64,000 nucleotides of DNA, from NCBI GenBank assembly GCA_043800755.1, contig JAZDMQ010000034.1, positions 2,656 through 66,655 of the forward strand. Direction: 5' to 3'. This document shows positions 53,720-61,441 of the stretch, piece after piece. Both the position numbers and the translations under genes were made by a program. Below the pieces are notes generated by a model that did no database searches, was not told where the DNA came from, and saw nothing but the letters and a program-made list of their open reading frames with translations. Source of the DNA: a bacterium. GTDB taxonomy: Bacteria > Methylomirabilota > Methylomirabilia > CAVQYV01. The stretch's first letter is position 1; the number at the start of each line of letters is the position of its first letter.

Positions 53720-55099
53720 TTAATTGCGGATCGAGTGGATCGGGGGAGGGAAGGTCCCTCCTCTGCGTATGAAGTCCCGGGAGGAAAAGGGGTTGACCGG
53801 CATCACCACCGTCGATCCAAACAGGCCGCCGAATTCTACCCTCTCCCCCGCTCTTGCACCCGGAACCGGAATCAGGCGAGCGCCCGTCGCCTTGTTGTTC
53901 ATCACCCCGATGGCCATTTCATCTGCGATCAGTCCCGCAACGGTCTCCGCAGTGGTGTCTCCCGGGATGGCCACCATATCCAACCCCACCGAGCAAACCG
54001 AGGTCATGGCCTCCAACTTCTCCAGGGAGAGGGCGCCGCTGGCGGCGGCGGCCACCATGCCCACATCCTCGCTCACCGGGATAAAGGCCCCTGAATACCC
54101 GCCCACGGCAGAAGTGGCCATGACACCCCCCATCTTGACCGCATTGGTAAGCAGGGCTAACGCCGCGGTAGAGCCAGGGGCACCTACTTTTTCGATCCCC
54201 ATCGCCTCCAAGATCTCAGCGACCGAATCGCCCACCTTGAAGGTGGGGGCCAGGGAGAGGTCCACCGCGCCCAGGCGCGTGTGAAGGGCCTCGGCCATCT
54301 CCCGGCCGATCAGCTCACCCACCCGGGTAATCTTGAAGGCCCTCCGCTTGATCTCTTGGGCCAGATCCTGCAAGGGCAAGCCCCTTTGGGATTGCAGGGC
54401 CGACTTGATGACCCCCGGCCCCGAGATCCCGATATTGATCACCGTCTCTGGGTTACCGAAGCCGTGAAAGGCCCCGGCCATGAAGGGGATGTTCTCCGGG
54501 GCATTGCACAGGACCACCAGGCGGGCGCAACCGCTCCCCTTCTCCGTCCGCTCGGAGATCTGTTTGACGATCTCCCCCATGGTCCTCACCGCATCCATAT
54601 TGATCCCGGACACGGTGGTCGCTACCTGGATGGAGGCGCACAGCGCCGAGGTAGAAGAGAGGACGGCGGGAAGGGAATGGATCAGGACCTCCTCGGCGAA
54701 GGTCAGGCCAATATGGACCAGCGCGGAGTAGCCTCCTACCAGGTCCACCCCCATCTCCTGGCAGGCCCGATCTAACTCCCCAGCGAAATCATCGCAGAAG
54801 GTCAAGGCCTCTGCTTCGTTCATGCCCCGAACTGGGGCCGCAATGATGGCCGAGAGCGGGGTTAGGGAGATGCGGAGGTTGACAATGGGGATGCCGTACT
54901 TCCTTTCCAGATGCCGGGCCGAGGGCAACAGGCCGGAGGCGGTGCGCTGAATCTTCTCTTTTACCTTTACCACCGCGTTTTGAGGATCGGCATCGATGCA
55001 GTCCAGGAGGGAGATCCCCAAGGTGATGGTGCGGATATCCAGATTCTCCAAATTGATCATCTTGATCGTTTCCAGGATCTCTTCCTTGCTATAGAGCAT
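53720..55099 (-). CDS. UPF0210 (DUF711) family protein
   Basis: MLYSKEEILETIKMINLENLDIRTITLGISLLDC... characteristic UPF0210 N-terminus. ~459 aa. Immediately downstream of the small ACT protein. Confidence 0.6.
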   Translation of the reverse strand: MLYSKEEILETIKMINLENLDIRTITLGISLLDCIDADPQNAVVKVKEKIQRTASGLLPSARHLERKYGIPIVNLRISLTPLSAIIAAPVRGMNEAEALTFCDDFAGELDRACQEMGVDLVGGYSALVHIGLTFAEEVLIHSLPAVLSSTSALCASIQVATTVSGINMDAVRTMGEIVKQISERTEKGSGCARLVVLCNAPENIPFMAGAFHGFGNPETVINIGISGPGVIKSALQSQRGLPLQDLAQEIKRRAFKITRVGELIGREMAEALHTRLGAVDLSLAPTFKVGDSVAEILEAMGIEKVGAPGSTAALALLTNAVKMGGVMATSAVGGYSGAFIPVSEDVGMVAAAASGALSLEKLEAMTSVCSVGLDMVAIPGDTTAETVAGLIADEMAIGVMNNKATGARLIPVPGARAGERVEFGGLFGSTVVMPVNPFSSRDFIRRGGTFPPPIHSIRN

Positions 55100-55126
55100 C
55101 TTTCACCTCAGGGAGATGGAGTACCT

Positions 55127-55408
55127 TCATATGCGATGCATGAAGTCAAAGATCTTCTTGTGCTGCATCAGGACCTTGACCCCCAGGGAATTTCCCTCCT
55201 GCGCCAGGGCCTCCTGCAAGGCCTCGAAGCTGGTCTGGCAGGCGGAGATGTCTACGATCAGGATCATGCTGAACATCTCCTGGAGGATAGTCTGGCTGAT
55301 GTCTTCAATATTGACCTGGTGATCCGCCAAGACCCGGGAGATCCCGGCCACCAGGCCCGGCCGGTCCCTCCCCATCACCGTGATGATCGCGAGTTCCTTT
55401 TCGCTCAT
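55127..55408 (-). CDS. ACT-domain protein UPF0237
   Basis: MSEKELAIITVMGRDRPGLVAGISRVLADHQVNIEDISQ... Single ACT domain, ~93 aa, the conserved partner of UPF0210. Confidence 0.6.
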   Translation of the reverse strand: MSEKELAIITVMGRDRPGLVAGISRVLADHQVNIEDISQTILQEMFSMILIVDISACQTSFEALQEALAQEGNSLGVKVLMQHKKIFDFMHRI

Positions 55409-55689
55409 CCTTCCCTCCCCCATTCCTCGCCGGGGCATGAACCCCTGGCCGAGATTCCCCCCTCTTCATCGCGGCATTATGAATAGGCATCCTGCATCTG
55501 TCAAGGAGAAAGCCGCCCCCTGGTGCCACCTTGTAAGCCGCCCCTTGCTTGACAAATTCGAACAACGGAACTCTCCAGCCCTGCTTTGCTGCAGGGGGGC
55601 AAGCATTCAATGCTTGCCCCCCTGCAGTTCTCAGGTTTCAGCTTGAAGGGTCTCCCCCAACCCTCGTCCACGAGGCCTTGCTCCTCTTT

Positions 55690-57174
55690 TTACATCTTTC
55701 CCCCAATGACCAGATAGAGGTAGGCAAGGCTCATCAGCACATAGGAGGCGGTGCAGAGGTACATGATGACCTTGTTGATCGGGTGGGGCTGGACCCACTG
55801 GGGGAAGGCCTTGGGCACCAGGTAGTAGTTCAGGTAGATCAGCCCCGGGGCGAAGATCGACATGGCCAGGAAGGAGCAGACGCCCCGAATGATCAGGAGG
55901 GCTCCAGGCTGGGCCAGCGCCATGGTGAAGATGGTGGATACGGAAAAGGTGGCCACAAAGATGTAGTACCAGGTGCGGAAGTGATATTTGCGGGCCGGCT
56001 TGATATTGGAATAGACGAAATCGGCCCATACCCGGGAGAACCCATCCGTGAGCTGCAGCCAGGCATCGCACAAGAAGGCGGCAGCGACCACCAGAAACAA
56101 GGCCCTCCCGACCCTGCCCCAGGCCACTTCAAAGAAGGCCGACTGCACCACCGCGATCTCCCAGCCCTTCGGGACCTTGTGCTCCGGCAGCAGCAGAGCC
56201 CAGGCCAGCCAGCACATGATTACCGTGGTCAGGGTATTGAGAAAGACCCCAATGAAGTTCTCGCTGGCGATGTAGCGCACCCAACCCTTATACTGCTTCT
56301 TGTTTTCCTCCGTGTCCTTGAACGCATAGCCCGTAGCAGGGATGGCCTCTTCCTCCCCGGTGATGGGGCTGGTCACCCGACCAATGAGCTTGCCCATGCC
56401 CGCCCCCTTATCTCTCATCCAGTAGCCAATGAAGAGCTGGCCAAACCCTCCGGCTCCGGCATAGGCGATGCAGGTGACCAAGATCCCCAAATCCTTAGGA
56501 TCCCAGTTGCTGGGCCTGGAGAAATGGGGAAGCAGAGCAGGAAGGAAGTGGGAGGCGGCTGAATAGACCTTCGGTTGGAACAGGGCGGCGGTGATGCCCC
56601 CGATGGTAATCAGCACGATGAGGCTGGAGAATTTCTCCACTACCGTGTAGACCACCCGGCCGAAGGTGAGGGCGATGATATAGACACTGATGGTGAGATA
56701 GCCCCAGAACAGGGCCCTGCCACCAGGACTCCATCCCGCAGGAAATTGAGTCAAGGATCCCAGGGCGGTCCCTCCTGCGCTGGCGTAGGCCCCAAACCAG
56801 ATATTCTCAATGAAGATCCCGATGAAGATCACGATGGCGTACCATCTTCCGATCCGGGTGAAGCCGGTCATGGCGGTCTCACCGGTGAGGATGGCGTAGC
56901 GCATAATCTCCAGGTTGATCCAGTACTGCAACATGGAGGCGGGGATGAGGATCCCCAGGAAGGCTGCCCCATACTTGGCGGTCATGTAAGGCCACCAGAT
57001 GAGCTCTCCGCTCCCCTGGGCCATGGCTGCCCAGATGAGCCCGGGTCCTATGTAAGCGAATATGCCCATAAAGGTAGGCAGGATCGCCAGCTTCAGGGGC
57101 TCCATTTTTCCCATGGGGACCTCGCCCCCGATGAGGCCTTGATTCGCATGCACCGGCTTCTTCTCCTCTGCCAT
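55690..57174 (-). CDS. Nramp-family membrane transporter, non-canonical (DPGN motif replaced by GPGL)
   Basis: 494 aa, ~11 TM. IFAYIGPGLIWAAMAQGSGELIWWPYMTAKYG aligns to the Nramp AYIDPGN...LLWV region. LEIMRYAILTGE aligns to the second Nramp motif. Confidence 0.5.
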   Translation of the reverse strand: MAEEKKPVHANQGLIGGEVPMGKMEPLKLAILPTFMGIFAYIGPGLIWAAMAQGSGELIWWPYMTAKYGAAFLGILIPASMLQYWINLEIMRYAILTGETAMTGFTRIGRWYAIVIFIGIFIENIWFGAYASAGGTALGSLTQFPAGWSPGGRALFWGYLTISVYIIALTFGRVVYTVVEKFSSLIVLITIGGITAALFQPKVYSAASHFLPALLPHFSRPSNWDPKDLGILVTCIAYAGAGGFGQLFIGYWMRDKGAGMGKLIGRVTSPITGEEEAIPATGYAFKDTEENKKQYKGWVRYIASENFIGVFLNTLTTVIMCWLAWALLLPEHKVPKGWEIAVVQSAFFEVAWGRVGRALFLVVAAAFLCDAWLQLTDGFSRVWADFVYSNIKPARKYHFRTWYYIFVATFSVSTIFTMALAQPGALLIIRGVCSFLAMSIFAPGLIYLNYYLVPKAFPQWVQPHPINKVIMYLCTASYVLMSLAYLYLVIGGKM

Positions 57175-57259: not shown

Positions 57260-57462
57260 ATTCACATCGGCTATTGTCTTCGATTGGGGGACGCACACAT
57301 GAGATCAACCTGGCCGCGAACGATCCGTTCTGTCGCTCCTTGGATCAACCCATATCACATGAGTTCATCGTATAATACCAGCCGCCCGTCGCTGTCAAGG
57401 AAAAATGGATCCCGGAAAGGCCCTTGGGCATGCCTGCCGACCCCTGGCCTCCCTGGCCTTCC

Positions 57463-57945
57463 TCAACGGGGAATCACATTGAATCCAGTATTCGAGATGA
57501 GTCCGGAATAGGTCTTCTTGAACTTCTTCCACAGGGCCCGCATATTCTTGTACCTCTGCAGCCAGGTGAGGAACAACAGGTCGAGGGCCGCGCTATCCGT
57601 CCAGATGACATCCTTCTTGTAGCCGGCGATCATGGAAACCCGGGTAGAATCCAGGAAGTTGGCAATCCGCTCCCTATCCGTATCGATGGTGCTGCAGGTG
57701 CCAAAATGGACCACCCAGTTTGCAAATCCTCTTCCCATGAAGCCCGCCAGGGTCTCGAGGTCAATCGAGCCCTCATCCAATTGAATCTCTCCCGGACTGC
57801 CATGGAAGGCAAAATAGAGGATCCCATAGCCCGATCGGCGCTTGATCTTGACCAGGTTATAGCGAAGCTCCTCCTTGGTATTGCAGGATAAAAGGATCAG
57901 CTTCACCTCGTTGAGCTTGGAGACCAGCTCCATGATCGGTCCCAT
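57463..57945 (-). CDS. hypothetical small protein with caspase/CHAT-like His-Gly ... Cys dyad
   Basis: ORF 57463..58119. Probable start at internal ATG 57945 (MGPIMELV). Motifs ILYFAFHGSPG and VVHFGTCST resemble the catalytic His and Cys strands of caspase-fold peptidases. No other similarity recognised. Confidence 0.3.
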   Translation of the reverse strand: MGPIMELVSKLNEVKLILLSCNTKEELRYNLVKIKRRSGYGILYFAFHGSPGEIQLDEGSIDLETLAGFMGRGFANWVVHFGTCSTIDTDRERIANFLDSTRVSMIAGYKKDVIWTDSAALDLLFLTWLQRYKNMRALWKKFKKTYSGLISNTGFNVIPR

Positions 57946-58382
57946 GCTCAGCCGCCGATGGCTCTCCAGGTCTTGGTCCCAAAGCGACTCCAGGCAGATG
58001 ATACTTTTCTTTTTTTGCTTGGCCAGCCTCAATTGGCAACGCCCCCTCTCTCGATTGCAGATACAAAGGGCCCCTATCGGGCACCCCTGAAGCAAATGCC
58101 CCCTTCTGCCTCCGCCCAACCCCTGGACTTATCTTGACAAATTCCCTCGCTTCCGGTATGGAAGATCCTGTTTGTACCTCCTTCCGGTGAGGCCAAGAAA
58201 AGGTGCGGCCCTTCTTTCTCATAAGTATAGGCCAAGCGCCTCATAATTTCAATCCCATTAGATAGGGGGGGGTCATCCTGTATAAACCTGCCCAGATCTC
58301 GACCTGCTGTCCCCAATGCGGCGGAGAACTGAATTTTGATGAGGGCTCCAATGCCGTCCAGTGCCGGTTTTGCGGAAGCGCA

Positions 58383-59753
58383 TTGCTGGCCACGGGATAT
58401 GGTCGCATCTTGAGCTATTCCCTTGCCTCCAACCTGAAGGCGGAGGAGGTGCGAAGAGCGGCCCTGGGACGGCTGACCTCCCGAGGACAGAAGAACGACA
58501 TTCGGGGGATTCGCCTCGCCTTCGTCCCCTTCTATCGGCTGACCGGCCTCGATTTCTCCTGGAGTTGGAAAGACAAGGAGATCACCTCCCCCTTGTTGGA
58601 GACCCCTCACGCCAGCAACGCGGCCCTGGGGATCCTCCGCTTCGGGGAGGAGGCCTTGAAAAACCCCAACGGCGGACCCCTTCCCCCCCTCAAGGAGAAG
58701 GAATATCTCCTCACCTCAATCTACCTGGATCGCACCTTCCTGGCCGCGGACTTGCCCTCCCTGAGCCTCCGCTCCTTAGGGGTGCGCTCCCAGGTGCGCA
58801 CCCTTCATCTCTTCGATCCGGAAGCGCTATCGCGAGAAGGACAAGTGATCCCGGTGACCATGGACTGGAAGGAGGCCTGGAATCGCATAGAAACGGGCCT
58901 GCCCCTCGAAAACCTGACCCGGCGGCTGCTCATCAACCGGATCCTCTCCTTGGTCTTCTTCCCTCTATGGGAGGTTCAGGTCGATTCCGGGGCAAGGACC
59001 TCCTCCCTCCTCTTCGACGGCGTCGCCCGGTCTTTTCTCCAAGAGGAGGCGGCCTCTCGCTTCTTTTCGGAGTCTCCGGCCGGCAGCGGCTTCTCCGCCC
59101 AAACCCTGCGCTTCCGACCCCTGGCTTGCCCGAACTGCGGCGGAGGCCTCCCCGTGGATCGGGACTTTCGCCTCTTCTCCTGTCCCACCTGTCATCGGCT
59201 CTGGCATATCAAGGGGGACGAATTCGAAAATCTCCCCTACCGCCTGGCGGAGGCGCCCAAGAGGCTCGATCCGCGCCAGGTGCATTATCTACCCTTCTGG
59301 ATCTTCCTGGGACAGGTCCACCTCGAAGGAAGAACCATTGCCAGCAAATATGACCTCGCTCAGCTCGCTCCCCAGGCGCGTCTCCTGCGTGAGGAGGATA
59401 AGGCGATCCCGCTCCGCTTCTTCGTCCCGGCCTTCAAGGTCCGGGACCTTTCAGTGGCCAATCGCCTCTCCACCTCCTTCACCCGCATGCAGCCGCTCTT
59501 CCAAGTCAAGGAGCCCAGCGGGGAATCGCTCCATCCTGGCGGGGTCCTGGATCGAGATGAGGCAGCCACCTTCGCCCACCTTTCCCTGGTCTCCATCACC
59601 CCCAAGGGAAATCCCAAGCTGGTGGAGCGAGTGGCTCAAGCTGAGCTCACCCTCTCCCCGGGCGAGCTGGTCTTCTTTCCCTTTCAAGATCATCTGGATT
59701 CGCTGCGGGAGGACTTCCTCGGCACCGCGATCCACAAAGCGACGCTCCGTTAG
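58383..59753 (+). CDS. hypothetical protein with two zinc-ribbon-headed repeated modules (true start probably upstream, non-canonical)
   Basis: Track ORF from TTG 58383. In-frame upstream codons encode CPQCGGELNFDEGSNAVQCRFCGS with no ATG/GTG/TTG before it. A second ribbon, CPNCGGGLPVDRDFRLFSCPTCH, occurs mid-protein. The two halves share motifs. Confidence 0.4.
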   Translation: MLATGYGRILSYSLASNLKAEEVRRAALGRLTSRGQKNDIRGIRLAFVPFYRLTGLDFSWSWKDKEITSPLLETPHASNAALGILRFGEEALKNPNGGPLPPLKEKEYLLTSIYLDRTFLAADLPSLSLRSLGVRSQVRTLHLFDPEALSREGQVIPVTMDWKEAWNRIETGLPLENLTRRLLINRILSLVFFPLWEVQVDSGARTSSLLFDGVARSFLQEEAASRFFSESPAGSGFSAQTLRFRPLACPNCGGGLPVDRDFRLFSCPTCHRLWHIKGDEFENLPYRLAEAPKRLDPRQVHYLPFWIFLGQVHLEGRTIASKYDLAQLAPQARLLREEDKAIPLRFFVPAFKVRDLSVANRLSTSFTRMQPLFQVKEPSGESLHPGGVLDRDEAATFAHLSLVSITPKGNPKLVERVAQAELTLSPGELVFFPFQDHLDSLREDFLGTAIHKATLR

Positions 59754-59760
59754 GGGTCCA

Positions 59761-60255
59761 ATGAGGATTCATTTTCAATCCCTAAGATCGGAAAAGGATG
59801 GGCCGGCGGGCCTGGTGCTCGGTTGTCTTTTGATTGGCCTGCTCGGTCTGGCGGCCGGACTGGGCTTCAATTCCCTGCGGTCCTCCCCCCTGCCCTTAAT
59901 CCCCCCTTTTCTCCTCGCCTCCCCCTACCCGGAGGCCGGACCGGATCAGGCGCAGGAATGGGCCGAGGAGGGCAGGGTCCTCTTTCTGGACAGTCGTCCT
60001 CATGCGCAATACAAGAAGGCCCATCTGCCCCAGGCGGTGAGCCTCCCGGTGAAGGACTTTCCTGCCCTCTATCCGGTGCTCAGTCCGCTCTTCCCTGCAG
60101 AGGGATGGATCGTCATTTACGGGGAGGGCGGAGGGTGGCCCACGGAGAGGGAACTGGCCCATCTCTTCCGGAAGGCGGGGATGGAGAGGGTCAAGGTGTT
60201 GGCCGGGGGGTTCCGTGCCTGGAAGGAGAGGGGCTTTCGAGTGGAGGGGAGATAG
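59761..60255 (+). CDS. membrane-anchored rhodanese-homology-domain protein lacking the catalytic Cys
   Basis: ATG at 59761. N-terminal TM LVLGCLLIGLLGLAAG. Rhodanese fold (VLFLDSRPHAQYKKAHLPQAVSLP...AGGFRAWKERG) with IVIYGEGGGWPT where the Cys loop is expected. Confidence 0.6.
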   Translation: MRIHFQSLRSEKDGPAGLVLGCLLIGLLGLAAGLGFNSLRSSPLPLIPPFLLASPYPEAGPDQAQEWAEEGRVLFLDSRPHAQYKKAHLPQAVSLPVKDFPALYPVLSPLFPAEGWIVIYGEGGGWPTERELAHLFRKAGMERVKVLAGGFRAWKERGFRVEGR

Positions 60256-60258
60256 AGG

Positions 60259-60762
60259 ATGAATCAAGGCCGGCCTGATTCCTGGCGCAGAAGAATACTC
60301 CACTTTTTGAAAAGCCCCTACCTGGCTGCGCTACTGCGGATCATCCTGGGCGCCCTTTTCCTCGAGGCGAGCTGGGATAAGATCCTGCATCCGGCTCGAT
60401 TTGCCGAGGATGTGGCCAACTACGCTATCCTCCCCCCTTTGTTGGTCAACTTGTGGGCCCTCGTCCTCCCCTGGCTGGAGATGATCGCCGGCCTCTCTCT
60501 CATCCTGGGCCTCCTCTCCCGGAGCAGCGCCCTGGTCCTCTCTGCCCTCCTGGTCAGCTTCATCATTGGCATCTCCATCAATATCGCCCGAGGGGCGGAG
60601 ATCGACTGCGGCTGTTTTGGCGCCGGGGAAGAGCTCGGCTGGATCAGCCTATTCCGGGATCTCCTGTTCCTAGCCATGGGGATCCAGATCCTCTTCTGCG
60701 ATCGGGGCTTCCTGGGATTGGATTCTCTGTGGAGAAAACGGGGGGTGGAAAAGGAGGGGTAG
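60259..60762 (+). CDS. DoxX/MauE-family membrane protein
   Basis: 167 aa, four TM. ILGALFLEASWDKILHP...WLEMIAGLSLILGLL. CGCFG motif typical of MauE/DoxX-like proteins. Confidence 0.65.
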   Translation: MNQGRPDSWRRRILHFLKSPYLAALLRIILGALFLEASWDKILHPARFAEDVANYAILPPLLVNLWALVLPWLEMIAGLSLILGLLSRSSALVLSALLVSFIIGISINIARGAEIDCGCFGAGEELGWISLFRDLLFLAMGIQILFCDRGFLGLDSLWRKRGVEKEG

Positions 60763-60862
60763 AAAAGGGATTGCTTTGGGGTCGGTTTTGTGTTTTGCTC
60801 ATTGGATCCAGGATGGGATTTCTGGCAAGGGATTTTCGACGATAGCAAAGGAGGGATGGGTC

Positions 60863-61441
60863 ATGGCGAAACAGGTCCCCTGGGAAACCATTATAGAGGT
60901 CGCCTTGGACCGAAGCACCAAGGAACAGAAGCCGATCTTCGTTGATTTCTGGTTCGATGGCTGAATTGGCTGCAAATTTATGAATACGGATTCGTATTCA
61001 CAGGACAAGGTGGTCGGTTTCTTGGTGGAGAACTTCATCCCCGTCCGCAGCCAGTGCTTCTTTGACCACTTTACGGCGATGATGCGGCGGTATCAGGTGA
61101 AATGGACCCCGACCTTCGTGGTCCTGGATCCGGACGGAAGGGAGCACCACCGGGTGGTGGGATTCCTCCCGCCCGAGGACTTCATGGCCCAGTTGCAGTT
61201 GGGAAAGGCCAAGCTCTACTACGATCAGGATCGGCTAGACAAGGCCGCTTCCGAGCTCCAGATCGTAATTGACCGCTTTCCCCAGACGGCGGCCGCGGAG
61301 GAGGCCATCTTCCTCCTGGGCGTCTCCGGCTACAAGCGTACCCATCAGGCCGGGGAATTGAAAAAGGCTTGGGAGAGGCTCTCCCGGGATTATCCCGCGA
61401 GCGAGTGGAGCAAGAGGGCCCGGCCCTATTCGGCCCTGTAG
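60863..61441 (+). CDS. thioredoxin-fold (Thioredoxin_7/DsbD-gamma-like) protein with in-frame UGA at 60962 (candidate selenocysteine, UxxC motif) and a C-terminal TPR-like region
   Basis: Track ORFs 60776..60964 and 60980..61441 are in the same frame, separated only by TGA. Read-through gives KPIFVDFWFDG-U-IGCKFMNTDSYSQDKVVGFLVENFIPV, aligning to KPvlVDFtADWCgWCK...F.dpeV...L...FV.v. The UGA sits at the first Cys of CxxC. AAGGAGGG RBS before ATG 60863. Confidence 0.55.
60981..61000 (+). promoter_or_regulatory. SECIS-like hairpin downstream of the in-frame UGA
   Basis: UGAAUACG-GAUU-CGUAUUCA, an 8-bp stem with apical loop GAUU (G at loop position 1). Begins 17 nt after the UGA, apical loop ~25 nt after, within the range reported for bacterial SECIS elements. 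Confidence 0.35.

What the first reader, a model, noticed from the sequence alone, without database searches (positions are those of the whole stretch)
57463..59753. Divergent pair of unknown genes: small caspase/CHAT-like His-Cys protein and a duplicated zinc-ribbon protein with a non-canonical start
On the minus strand, a ~160-aa protein has ILYFAFHGSPG ... VVHFGTCST, which matches the beta-strand-His-Gly and beta-strand-Cys arrangement of caspase-fold (C14/CHAT) peptidases. It is far smaller than typical members. On the plus strand, divergently, sits a ~490-aa protein built from two similar modules, each headed by a zinc ribbon (CPQCGG-N14-CRFCG and CPNCGGG-N13-CPTCH). The first ribbon is encoded in frame upstream of the first ATG/GTG/TTG (58383). 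The open frame starts after the TAG at 58263..58265, and the only start-like codons before the ribbon are CTG 58278 and ATC 58275, preceded by a GGGGGGGG run. Either the gene starts at a rare start codon or the sequence carries an error. Neither protein resembles a family I can name. The compact pairing in a housekeeping context suggests a small accessory module.
Basis: partly seen in the sequence, partly recalled or inferred. Interest (0 to 1): 0.55.

Follow-up and report, generated by a model that had tools for sequence, protein, structure and literature searches.

The report
Mini-caspase gene beside CTG-started zinc-ribbon gene
Two back-to-back genes in an NC10-type bacterium encode a very small caspase-fold protein and a two-zinc-ribbon protein whose translation almost certainly starts at a conserved rare CTG codon, but they are neighbours only in this lineage and do not look like a shared module.

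Summary

**Minus-strand gene (57463..58032).** It encodes 189 aa from a TTG start, not about 160 aa. It belongs to Pfam DUF6642. A confident AlphaFold model (pLDDT 89) matches the CHAT and caspase folds, and His77-Gly78 and Cys113 are invariant.

**Plus-strand gene.** It encodes two zinc ribbons whose eight cysteines are invariant across a large family with no Pfam model (1,583 clusters at 50% identity). The first ribbon lies upstream of every ATG, GTG or TTG.
- The family normally starts 9-10 codons before the first Cys. This clade has CTG there in 12 of 13 distinct sequences, each with a GGAGG-like Shine-Dalgarno 3-6 nt upstream.
- dN/dS for the ribbon-1 codons is about 0.1.
- I therefore place the start at CTG 58278, giving 491 aa.

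**The "module" reading fails.** The two genes are adjacent only in a narrow, fully syntenic clade.
- In 63 of 66 other genomes the ribbon gene directly follows an SPFH (Band_7_1 plus zinc ribbon) gene.
- The ribbon family is a distant, anchor-less relative of YdjG-like SPFH partners (hhalign 97.8%).
- DUF6642 has no constant neighbour.

Overall these are new variants of known kinds, of moderate interest.

The parts
57463..58032 (-). DUF6642 gene: 189-aa soluble mini caspase-fold protein, TTG start; His77-Gly78 and Cys113 form the predicted catalytic dyad.
   Evidence: Pfam PF20347 E 1.7e-16, 60.8 bits against a cut-off of 27. Homologues are 184-191 aa and start at the same position. AF2 model pLDDT 89.3, pTM 0.87. 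Foldseek top hits are SAVED-CHAT 8tl0 (E 4e-8, TM 0.69) and caspases-3/6/7 and CED-3. No TM segment.
58224..58252 (-). Sigma-70-type promoter for the DUF6642 gene: TTGAAA (58252..58247), 17-nt spacer, TATACT (58229..58224). It lies inside the 5' leader of the plus-strand gene.
   Evidence: Promoter scan gives 10 of 12 matches, against 0.3 expected in shuffles. Across clade members the hexamers are conserved while the 17-nt spacer varies in sequence but not length (alignment).
58134..58162 (+). Candidate promoter for the zinc-ribbon gene: TTGACA (58134..58139), 17-nt spacer, TATGGA (58157..58162; weak -10, consensus TATnnA in relatives).
   Evidence: TTGACA is conserved in 6 of 7 clade sequences and TATnnA sits 17 nt downstream. 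The scan did not report it because the -10 has 3 of 6 matches and lacks the final T, so this is inferred only.
58265..58272 (+). G8 run acting as the Shine-Dalgarno element, 5 nt upstream of the CTG start. Its first G completes the in-frame TAG stop (58263..58265).
   Evidence: Relatives carry GGAGG, AGGAGG or GGGAGGA at the same place, 3-6 nt before the CTG. Two 99-100% identical contigs (L014, L091) have 7 G instead of 8, which shifts the upstream frame without consequence, so this stretch is untranslated.
58278..59753 (+). Zinc-ribbon protein gene: 491 aa, with the proposed start at CTG 58278 and a TAG stop at 59751..59753.
   Evidence: The open frame and the lack of a canonical start before ribbon 1 are shown. 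CTG sits at the family's normal start position. dN/dS is 0.17-0.30 for the whole gene. For codons 1-35, dN is 0.10-0.19 and dS 1.1-2.1. AF2 model pLDDT 91.3, pTM 0.88. No TM segment.
58308..58373 (+). Zinc ribbon 1 (Cys11, Cys14, Cys29, Cys32 in CTG-start numbering), located upstream of the first canonical start codon TTG 58383.
   Evidence: All four cysteines are invariant in 64 homologues. The ribbon aligns to ribbon 2 and to the second ribbon of YdjG-like proteins.
59127..59192 (+). Zinc ribbon 2 (Cys284, Cys287, Cys302, Cys305), heading the second module.
   Evidence: All four cysteines are invariant in 64 homologues.
59762..61441 (+). Downstream genes that probably share an operon with the ribbon gene in this clade: membrane-anchored rhodanese, a DoxX/MauE-type membrane protein and a thioredoxin-like protein.
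   Evidence: ORFs appear, with an 8-nt gap after the ribbon gene's stop. Pfam families of the orthologues in syntenic contigs are PF00581, PF07291/PF07681 and PF13098.

Best explanation
These are two unrelated genes that became neighbours in one NC10 (Methylomirabilota-like) lineage. They are not a two-gene system.

**Gene 1 (minus strand)** encodes a 189-aa soluble member of Pfam DUF6642.
- It is a minimal caspase-hemoglobinase fold carrying an invariant His-Gly after the third core strand and an invariant Cys after the fourth.
- I infer it is a stand-alone Cys/His hydrolase, most likely a peptidase.

**Gene 2 (plus strand)** encodes a 491-aa soluble protein with two Cys4 zinc ribbons. Each ribbon is followed by a helix and a long 'hhhPFW' strand.
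- It belongs to a very large family with no Pfam model. Elsewhere the gene is almost always encoded immediately downstream of, and on the same strand as, an SPFH (Band_7_1 plus double zinc ribbon, YdjI-like) gene.
- The family is a distant, duplicated relative of the YdjG/SamG-type proteins that recruit the SPFH protein YdjI to the membrane in Bacillus subtilis. It lacks the membrane anchor.
- I infer it is a zinc-dependent partner or adaptor of an SPFH scaffold.

**In this lineage** the gene has lost the SPFH neighbour. It now heads a rhodanese-DoxX-thioredoxin gene string.
- Translation starts at a conserved CTG (58278). A Shine-Dalgarno element, here a G8 run, sits 5 nt upstream.
- The CTG occupies the position where relatives have ATG or GTG.
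- A weak start codon would keep the protein's level low.

**What is shown and what is inferred**
- Shown: the folds, residue conservation, family sizes, gene contexts, lack of a canonical start, CTG and Shine-Dalgarno conservation, and purifying selection on ribbon 1.
- Inferred: catalytic activity, SPFH binding, low expression and promoter use.
For: **DUF6642**
- Pfam hit above the cut-off.
- 37 homologues have invariant H77, G78 and C113.
- AF2 pLDDT 89.
- Foldseek returns 251 PDB hits at E<=1e-3, led by SAVED-CHAT, caspases-3/6/7, CED-3 and TPR-CHAT.

**Ribbon family**
- Exhaustive HMM search finds 1,583 representatives at E<=1e-3 and 173 at E<=1e-30.
- Eight cysteines are invariant.
- AF2 pLDDT 91.

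**SPFH link**
- A Band_7_1+DZR gene (Pfam) lies directly upstream on the same strand in 63 of 66 loci with enough upstream DNA. These come from at least six phylum-level lineages.
- The closest non-clade relative, P0058, found independently, shows the same arrangement.
- Profile-profile match to five real YdjG-like proteins gives 97.8% probability, E 6.6e-13. A ribbon-free second match gives 95.4%.
- Each of those five proteins follows an annotated SPFH gene.
- The published YdjG/YdjI roles are in PMC8581546 and PMC11237479.

**No pairing of the two genes**
- No DUF6642 within 8 kb in any of the 73 ribbon-family loci.
- The ribbon gene is next to DUF6642 only in loci at least 73% identical to the window's DUF6642. 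Those loci are syntenic over the whole neighbourhood.

**Start codon**
- No ATG, GTG or TTG between the in-frame stop and ribbon 1 in the window and at least seven other distinct sequences.
- Family-wide, the start lies 9-10 codons before Cys1.
- CTG occupies that position in 12 of 13 distinct clade sequences, each preceded by a GGAGG-like motif.
- CTG accounts for only 36% of codons at conserved Leu columns, and only 2 of 49 such columns are all-CTG.
- For codons 1-35, dN is 0.10-0.19 and dS 1.1-2.1.
- N-terminal extensions called in some relatives are not conserved.
Against: - No experimental data exist for either protein.
- The caspase assignment rests on a predicted structure. I could not inspect the superposition, so the placement of His and Cys at the catalytic positions is judged from their position after the predicted strands and from their spacing (36 residues, against about 42 in caspase-3).
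- No sequence-level match to Peptidase_C14 or CHAT models.
- The window gene itself has no SPFH gene within 64 kb, so its present partner is unknown.
- The YdjG-like comparison set was retrieved with a bait sequence recalled from memory that I could not verify. Only the retrieved annotated proteins were used as evidence.
- The clade's two promoters are conserved and face each other, which leaves room for local co-regulation.
- One clade member (L003) has CTC instead of CTG, plus an ATG 26 codons upstream of Cys1.
Confidence: 0.72

Rival explanations
1. The two genes form a lineage-specific functional pair. The mini-caspase would process or regulate the orphaned ribbon protein, or the reverse, and the genes would be co-regulated through their overlapping, face-to-face promoters.
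For: - The divergent arrangement with a 245-nt spacer is kept in all clade members down to about 55% (ribbon protein) and 73-79% (DUF6642) identity.
- Both promoter-like elements are conserved.
- Each promoter lies inside the other gene's leader, so the two 5' UTRs would overlap in antisense by about 45 nt (inferred).
- The ribbon gene lost its usual SPFH partner exactly where it gained this neighbour.
Against: - The whole 13-kb neighbourhood is syntenic in the same contigs, so adjacency carries no extra information.
- There is no co-occurrence in 73 ribbon loci, nor in 66 DUF6642 loci outside the clade.
- Each family has its own context elsewhere: SPFH for the ribbon family, variable neighbours for DUF6642.
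Confidence: 0.12
2. The ribbon gene starts at the first canonical codon (TTG 58383) and lacks ribbon 1. Alternatively, it is a decaying pseudogene, or the sequence carries an error in the G-run.
For: - Automatic gene callers chose TTG 58383, or other late starts, for this and several related contigs (P0001, P0005, P0006, P0008, P0013).
- G-run length differs between near-identical contigs, 8 against 7.
Against: - The ribbon-1 cysteines are invariant in 64 homologues.
- Codons 1-35 are under strong purifying selection.
- Neither 7, 8 nor 9 G creates a canonical start upstream (sequence reading).
- At least eight distinct sequences share the feature.
- The full 491-codon frame is intact in all clade members, with dN/dS 0.17-0.30.
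Confidence: 0.04
3. Translation starts upstream of ribbon 1 but at a different rare codon, such as ATC 58275 or ATC 58296, rather than CTG 58278.
For: ATC 58275 is adjacent to the CTG and is served by the same G-run. ATC/ATT starts are known in bacteria, for example infC (own knowledge).
Against: - The codon before the CTG is not conserved. It is AAG, CAT, ACC, ATC, ACG, CCC or TCG in relatives.
- ATC 58296 encodes the conserved Ile of 'ISTxC'. It would lie 23 nt from the Shine-Dalgarno element.
- CTG is the only start-like codon shared by 12 of 13 sequences.
Confidence: 0.07
4. DUF6642 keeps the caspase fold but is not a peptidase. It could be a different thiol-dependent hydrolase or transferase, or a non-catalytic binding domain.
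For: - No sequence similarity to any characterised clan-CD peptidase.
- At 189 aa it lacks most of the specificity loops of caspases.
- Extra invariant residues (Cys50-Asn51-Thr52, His109, Trp106) are not caspase features.
- In Pyrinomonadaceae it sits between a UbiA prenyltransferase and a radical-SAM CofH_C gene, which looks metabolic.
Against: - The His-Gly/Cys pair is invariant in all 37 sequences and sits where the dyad is expected.
- The best structural matches are active proteases.
- The metabolic context is confined to one lineage.
Confidence: 0.3

Closest known systems
CHAT and caspase peptidases (clan CD; e.g. SAVED-CHAT PDB 8tl0, caspase-3/7, TPR-CHAT of Craspase)
   Same: - Same predicted fold (Foldseek E 4e-8 to 1e-5, TM 0.6-0.69 normalised to the query).
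- His-Gly follows one core strand and Cys follows the next, both invariant.
   Different: - Only 170-190 aa, against about 250-300 aa for a caspase or CHAT catalytic domain.
- No detectable sequence similarity.
- No fused sensor or effector domain (SAVED, TPR and similar).
- No defence-system context: PADLOC gives no hit and neighbours are variable and housekeeping.
- Activity is untested.
Pfam DUF6642 (PF20347)
   Same: The window protein scores 60.8 bits against a cut-off of 27, and all 37 homologues carry the precomputed PF20347 assignment.
   Different: Nothing differs; it is a member. The family has no described function, and I found no paper that mentions it.
Bacillus subtilis YdjG (SamG) and YdjG-like 'TFIIB-type zinc ribbon-containing proteins', partners of the SPFH protein YdjI (SamI)
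   Same: - A zinc ribbon followed by a helix and an 'hhPaW' strand, with profile-profile probability 97.8% (E 6.6e-13) and a second ribbon-free match at 95.4%.
- Encoded next to a Band_7_1-type SPFH gene with C-terminal zinc ribbons.
- In B. subtilis, YdjG and YdjH are needed to bring YdjI and PspA to the membrane (PMC8581546).
- Domain description of YdjG is in PMC11237479.
   Different: - About 490 aa against about 340-430 aa.
- The two ribbons are about 270 residues apart, each heading a module, instead of both lying in the N-terminal third.
- No C-terminal transmembrane helix.
- No TPM (YdjH) or PspA gene was seen in the operons. A 166-aa protein without Pfam (C2) is the frequent third gene instead.
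- The window gene has no SPFH neighbour at all.
Bacterial genes with non-ATG/GTG/TTG starts (CTG and ATT/ATC are allowed in translation table 11; infC AUU is the classic case, from own knowledge)
   Same: - A weak start codon is served by a good Shine-Dalgarno element at normal spacing.
- The codon is conserved among relatives.
   Different: - The evidence here is comparative only.
- The CTG replaced an ATG/GTG that the rest of the family uses at the same position.
- No autoregulatory logic of the infC type is known for it.

Membership tests
Clan CD caspase/CHAT-type peptidases | Caspase-hemoglobinase fold (central mostly parallel sheet flanked by helices) | tested here: met
   AF2 model pLDDT 89.3, pTM 0.87. 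Foldseek against PDB gives 251 hits at E<=1e-3, all top hits CHAT or caspases, TM 0.6-0.69.
Clan CD caspase/CHAT-type peptidases | Catalytic His (His-Gly) after one core strand and catalytic Cys after the next, both conserved | tested here: met
   H77-G78 follows strand 69-75 and C113 follows strand 107-110. All are invariant in 37 sequences. The residue-level superposition on a caspase was not available to me.
Clan CD caspase/CHAT-type peptidases | Sequence match to Peptidase_C14 (PF00656) or CHAT (PF12770) models | tested here: not met
   Pfam scan at E<=1 returns only DUF6642. PDB sequence and profile searches find no caspase.
Clan CD caspase/CHAT-type peptidases | Cysteine-dependent peptide-bond hydrolysis | not testable with these tools
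   Needs an enzyme assay.
Pfam DUF6642 (PF20347) | Score at or above the gathering threshold over most of the model | tested here: met
   60.8 bits against 27, model positions 32-179 of 182, using the 160-aa form. The 189-aa form supplies the missing N-terminal strand.
YdjG/SamG-like SPFH-associated zinc-ribbon proteins | Zinc ribbon(s) followed by the helix plus 'PaW' strand unit | tested here: met
   hhalign of the 64-sequence family alignment against 5 YdjG-like proteins: 97.8% (E 6.6e-13, 83 columns) and 95.4% (50 columns without the ribbon).
YdjG/SamG-like SPFH-associated zinc-ribbon proteins | Gene adjacent to a Band_7_1 SPFH gene (YdjI-like) | tested here: not met
   Met for the family: 63 of 66 loci, P0058 and all 5 YdjG-like loci. 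Not met for the window gene or its clade, which have no Band_7_1 gene in the 64-kb window or in the clade loci.
YdjG/SamG-like SPFH-associated zinc-ribbon proteins | C-terminal transmembrane anchor | tested here: not met
   Maximum Kyte-Doolittle 19-residue mean is 1.47. The five YdjG-like proteins end in a hydrophobic helix (sequences). Some distant family members instead carry an N-terminal hydrophobic extension (P0018).
YdjG/SamG-like SPFH-associated zinc-ribbon proteins | Operon with PspA and a TPM-domain protein (YdjH) | tested here: not met
   The recurrent third gene is a 166-aa protein with no Pfam or PDB match. No TPM or PspA appears in the Pfam lists of the clade loci or L172. Not every locus was scanned with Pfam.
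Genes initiated at CTG | No canonical start available upstream of an essential, conserved N-terminal element | tested here: met
   In-frame stop at 58263-65, first ATG/GTG/TTG at 58383, ribbon 1 at 58308-58373. The same holds in at least seven other distinct sequences.
Genes initiated at CTG | Conserved CTG with a Shine-Dalgarno element at working distance | tested here: met
   CTG in 12 of 13 distinct sequences, with a GGAGG-like motif 3-6 nt upstream. Background CTG share at conserved Leu columns is 36%.
Genes initiated at CTG | Protein N-terminus or initiating ribosome mapped to the CTG | not testable with these tools
   Needs proteomics or initiation profiling.

The most novel reading that the evidence does not exclude
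The ribbon protein would represent an unrecognised family with a new fold that serves as the standard partner of Band_7_1 SPFH scaffolds in at least six bacterial phyla. On this reading it is an anchor-less, duplicated counterpart of SamG/YdjG. The NC10 lineage would have rewired it to a membrane thiol-redox operon (rhodanese-DoxX-thioredoxin) and deliberately throttled it with a conserved CTG start. Beside it, DUF6642 would be the smallest active clan-CD peptidase known, at about 180 aa.
Probability: 0.3. Interest if true: 0.6.

Novelty: new variant of a known kind. Interest (0 to 1): 0.45.

Why it matters
- **Start codon.** This is a clean, comparatively supported case of a conserved CTG start. 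Public gene calls for this gene are wrong in both directions: some are truncated by 35-74 residues and lose part or all of a zinc ribbon (P0001, P0005, P0006, P0008, P0012-P0014), and others are extended by non-conserved residues (P0002-P0004). It is a useful test case for gene finders and for studying weak-start regulation.
- **SPFH partner family.** The work exposes a very large protein family with no Pfam model and no structural relative in the PDB. The family is almost obligatorily linked to SPFH/Band_7_1 genes and is remotely related to YdjG/SamG. This gives the SPFH field a concrete candidate partner outside Firmicutes.
- **DUF6642.** A Pfam DUF now has a fold and a probable catalytic dyad. 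If it is active, it sets a lower size limit for the caspase fold.
- **The pairing.** The adjacency that drew attention is a lineage accident, which spares a fruitless search for a 'module'.

Tried and rejected
- PDB sequence searches with both proteins and with the DUF6642 profile found nothing useful.
- PADLOC and NCBIfam returned only weak zinc-ribbon noise.
- Rfam on 57300-59900 found no RNA family in the conserved leader.
- Foldseek of the ribbon model found no PDB hit at E<=1e-3. In BFVD only two giant-virus 'DnaJ-like C3' proteins appeared, at E 1e-4 but TM 0.2. I do not interpret these.
- A second word-indexed search with the family alignment added nothing.
- The search for related loci with the 64-sequence alignment failed because no stretch was conserved enough. 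A narrower alignment was used instead.
- tblastn of the window ribbon protein against plasmids found no match.
- An exact look-up of a YdjG sequence recalled from memory failed. That sequence served only as bait. Only the annotated proteins it retrieved were used.
- I tested whether the 402-aa unknown gene near Acidobacterial DUF6642 is a ribbon-family member. It is not.
- I tested whether the UbiA/radical-SAM context of DUF6642 is general. It is confined to the Pyrinomonadaceae loci.
- I tested whether the third operon gene C2 is PspA-like. There was no PDB or Pfam match, only a weak NCBIfam LIMLP_15305 hit.
- A frameshift in the G-run as a route to an upstream ATG was rejected by reading all three frames.
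Full report
**1. What is in the sequence**

The minus-strand ORF ending at 57463 contains ILYFAFHGSPG and VVHFGTCST. The plus-strand frame is open from just after TAG 58263-58265 to the stop at 59753. It encodes CPQCGG-N14-CRFCG near its beginning and CPNCGGG-N13-CPTCH at residue 284. The first ATG/GTG/TTG in that frame is TTG 58383, downstream of the first ribbon.

**2. The small protein is a mini caspase fold (Pfam DUF6642)**

- It scores 60.8 bits on PF20347, against a cut-off of 27.
- Thirty-six homologues of 40-99% identity were found, mostly 171-209 aa. In the window that position is TTG 58032. The extra segment (KSIICLESLWD) is conserved and forms the first beta-strand.
- Invariant residues in 37 sequences include His77-Gly78 and Cys113, and also Cys50-Asn51-Thr52, His109 and Trp106.
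- AlphaFold2 with this alignment gives pLDDT 89.3 and pTM 0.87. His-Gly directly follows strand 69-75 and Cys follows strand 107-110.
- Foldseek against the PDB returns 251 hits at E<=1e-3. The list is led by the CHAT domain of the SAVED-CHAT filament (8tl0, E 4e-8, TM 0.69), then caspases-3/6/7, CED-3 and the TPR-CHAT protease of type III-E CRISPR.
- There is no sequence-level similarity to these proteins.
- The protein has no hydrophobic segment and no PADLOC hit.
- No paper in the library mentions DUF6642 or PF20347.

The fold and the dyad pattern are therefore shown. Catalysis is inferred.

**3. The large protein belongs to a big family without a Pfam model that is tied to SPFH genes**

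- The word-indexed search found only 18 relatives. The exhaustive profile search found 1,583 representatives (50%-identity clusters) at E<=1e-3 and 173 at E<=1e-30.
- In a 64-sequence alignment all eight ribbon cysteines are invariant. Most proteins begin 5-9 residues before the first one.
- Pfam recognises only the ribbons.
- AlphaFold2 gives pLDDT 91.3 and pTM 0.88. Foldseek finds no PDB match at E<=1e-3.
- The two-module idea is partly right. Residues 1-135 and 273-375 align at 96% probability over the ribbon and the following 'PFY/PFW' strand. The other parts are at best weakly similar.

A scan of one genome per species gave 73 loci. By record titles they come from Methylomirabilota/Rokubacteria, Nitrospirota, Binatia, Desulfobacterota and 'delta proteobacteria', Acidobacteriota, Zixibacteria and Ignavibacteria.

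- Clustering the flanking ORFs showed one dominant neighbour, a 350-440-aa gene directly upstream on the same strand. It is present in 63 of the 66 loci that have at least 1.1 kb of upstream DNA.
- That gene is Band_7_1 (PF13421, E 2e-68) plus a C-terminal double zinc ribbon. This is the architecture described for B. subtilis YdjI (PMC11237479).
- A 166-aa protein without Pfam, PDB or convincing NCBIfam match precedes it in 35 loci.
- P0058, the closest relative outside the window's clade, was looked up independently. It also follows a Band_7_1+DZR gene, with a 1-nt gap.

**4. Relation to YdjG/SamG**

In B. subtilis, the membrane proteins YdjG and YdjH are required to bring the soluble SPFH protein YdjI, and through it PspA, to the membrane (PMC8581546). 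YdjG is described as two zinc ribbons, an NTF2-like domain and a TM segment (PMC11237479).

I had no verified YdjG sequence. A sequence recalled from memory was not found by exact look-up, so I used it only as bait. It retrieved real, annotated proteins on Enterococcus, Comamonas, Vibrio, Paracoccus and Tsukamurella replicons.

- Each of these lies immediately downstream of an annotated 'SPFH domain-containing protein'. In Enterococcus it is also followed by a TPM-domain gene.
- Their SPFH neighbours match my Band_7_1 neighbour HMM at E 1e-28 to 2e-85.
- A profile-profile comparison of the 64-sequence family alignment with these five proteins gives 97.8% probability (E 6.6e-13). It covers window residues 9-91, comprising the ribbon, the helix and the 'PYW' strand.
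- A second, ribbon-free alignment covers residues 188-237 at 95.4%.

The family is therefore a remote relative of YdjG-like SPFH partners, with three differences. It is larger. Its two ribbons each head a module. It has no membrane anchor. A subset, such as P0018, carries a hydrophobic N-terminal extension.

**5. The two genes are not a conserved pair**

- No DUF6642 ORF occurs within 8 kb of any of the 73 ribbon-family loci.
- Among 80 DUF6642 loci from metagenomes, the ribbon gene is adjacent only in those whose DUF6642 is at least 73% identical to the window's (L091-L103). The remaining 66 have variable, unrelated neighbours.
- In Pyrinomonadaceae, DUF6642 sits between a UbiA prenyltransferase and a radical-SAM CofH_C gene. 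That context is not general.
- In the clade that keeps the pair, the whole neighbourhood is syntenic: branched-chain ABC transporter, a 495-aa membrane protein, DUF6642, the ribbon gene, rhodanese, DoxX/MauE and thioredoxin. Adjacency there says nothing about function.
- The distant ribbon relative P0018 lies beside priA and a TetR gene.
- The window and its clade carry no Band_7_1 gene in the DNA available. This lineage has separated the ribbon gene from its usual partner.
- One 67%-identical homologue is named 'candidate division NC10 bacterium'. That is my only basis for the organism.

**6. The start codon**

Six lines of evidence converge on CTG 58278.

1. Ribbon 1 must be translated. Its cysteines are invariant family-wide. 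Codons 1-35, from the CTG to the TTG, show dN 0.10-0.19 against dS 1.1-2.1 in six orthologue comparisons, at least as constrained as the whole gene at 0.17-0.30.
2. Between the in-frame stop and ribbon 1 there is no ATG, GTG or TTG in the window, nor in at least seven other distinct clade sequences. Their upstream stops lie at different positions.
3. Across the wider family, the start (ATG in most, GTG or TTG in some) lies 9-10 codons before the first ribbon Cys. The clade has a conserved Leu exactly there, in LYKPAxISTxC.
4. That Leu is CTG in 12 of 13 distinct sequences. Each is preceded by GGAGG, AGGAGG, GGGAGGA or, in the window, G8, at 3-6 nt. Sequence further upstream diverges.
5. CTG makes up only 36% of codons at the 49 Leu columns conserved in five distinct clade sequences, and only two of those columns are all-CTG. 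The codon itself is therefore under selection.
6. Two near-identical contigs have G7 instead of G8. This changes the upstream frame, so that stretch is not coding.

The codon preceding CTG (ATC in the window) is not conserved, which argues against ATC 58275. The N-terminal extensions that gene callers gave some relatives (P0002, P0003, P0016) are not similar to each other. One outlying member (L003) has CTC at this position and an ATG 26 codons before Cys1, so it may start there.

**7. Regulatory anatomy (partly inferred)**

- The 245-nt spacer holds a minus-strand TTGAAA-17-TATACT promoter at 58252-58224. It scores 10 of 12, against 0.3 hits expected in shuffles. Its hexamers are conserved while its spacer varies.
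- It also holds a plus-strand TTGACA-17-TATGGA element at 58134-58162, conserved in 6 of 7 clade sequences but with a poor -10.
- If both are used, each lies in the other's leader and the two 5' UTRs overlap in antisense by about 45 nt.
- Rfam finds nothing there.

**8. Verdict**

- The caspase-fold guess and the non-canonical-start guess are both supported and sharpened: DUF6642 and CTG 58278.
- The 'accessory module' reading is not supported.
- What remains is a new, very small variant of the caspase fold with unknown substrate, a new anchor-less and duplicated variant of the YdjG-type SPFH partner in a lineage that uncoupled it from SPFH, and a well-supported conserved CTG start.

None of this is categorically new, and all functional statements are inferences, so interest is moderate.

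Noticed in passing
L018-L090 (e.g. L019 2644-5703): A conserved three-gene string occurs in many phyla: a 166-aa helical protein with no Pfam or PDB match (weak NCBIfam LIMLP_15305 hit), then a Band_7_1 SPFH protein with a C-terminal double zinc ribbon, then the two-ribbon protein. It looks like an undescribed SPFH system lacking PspA and TPM genes.
   Followed up: partly
L008 5126-7805; L011 5125-7716: In Pyrinomonadaceae-type Acidobacteria, DUF6642 lies 5-6 nt after a UbiA prenyltransferase gene and just before a radical-SAM CofH_C gene, a menaquinone/futalosine-like setting. A redoxin-rhodanese pair lies about 5 kb upstream. This context was not seen in other lineages.
   Followed up: partly
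window 59762-61441: The ribbon gene is followed at an 8-nt gap by a membrane-anchored rhodanese. A DoxX/MauE-type membrane protein and a thioredoxin-like protein come next. This thiol-redox string is conserved in the clade and is probably co-transcribed with the ribbon gene.
   Followed up: partly
window 58134-58252: Two conserved promoter-like elements face each other, so each lies within the other gene's leader. The two 5' UTRs would then overlap in antisense by roughly 45 nt.
   Followed up: partly
window 58265-58272 vs L014 and L091: The homopolymer G-run is 8 in the window and 7 in two 99-100% identical contigs. This is either natural length variation in the Shine-Dalgarno tract or an assembly error.
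   Followed up: partly
window 55690-57174 (minus strand): A 494-aa polytopic membrane protein has orthologues in syntenic contigs that carry no Pfam hit on record. It lies downstream of DUF6642 on the same strand, after a 288-nt gap.
   Followed up: no
public proteins P0001, P0005, P0006, P0008, P0012-P0014 and P0002-P0004: Database gene calls for this gene are inconsistent. Several are truncated by 35-74 residues and lose part or all of ribbon 1. Others are extended by 30-65 non-conserved residues. All of this follows from the missing canonical start.
   Followed up: yes
P0018 (L004-L007 8001-9959) and P0103, P0140, P0159, P0163, P0167, P0175: A subset of the ribbon family carries an extra N-terminal extension of about 100-140 aa. 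In P0018 it is clearly hydrophobic and multi-TM-like. P0018 lies divergently next to priA and before a TetR gene instead of after an SPFH gene.
   Followed up: no
model m37be30d91ee4 vs BFVD: The only structure hits at E<=1e-3 for the ribbon protein are two giant-virus proteins named 'DnaJ-like subfamily C member 3' (Yasminevirus, Edafosvirus; E 1e-4, probability 1.0, but TM about 0.2). The meaning is unclear.
   Followed up: no
window 53720-55438 (minus strand): Upstream housekeeping genes look like a UPF0210/DUF711-type protein (459 aa) and a small ACT-domain protein (103 aa). This is judged from the translations only.
   Followed up: no
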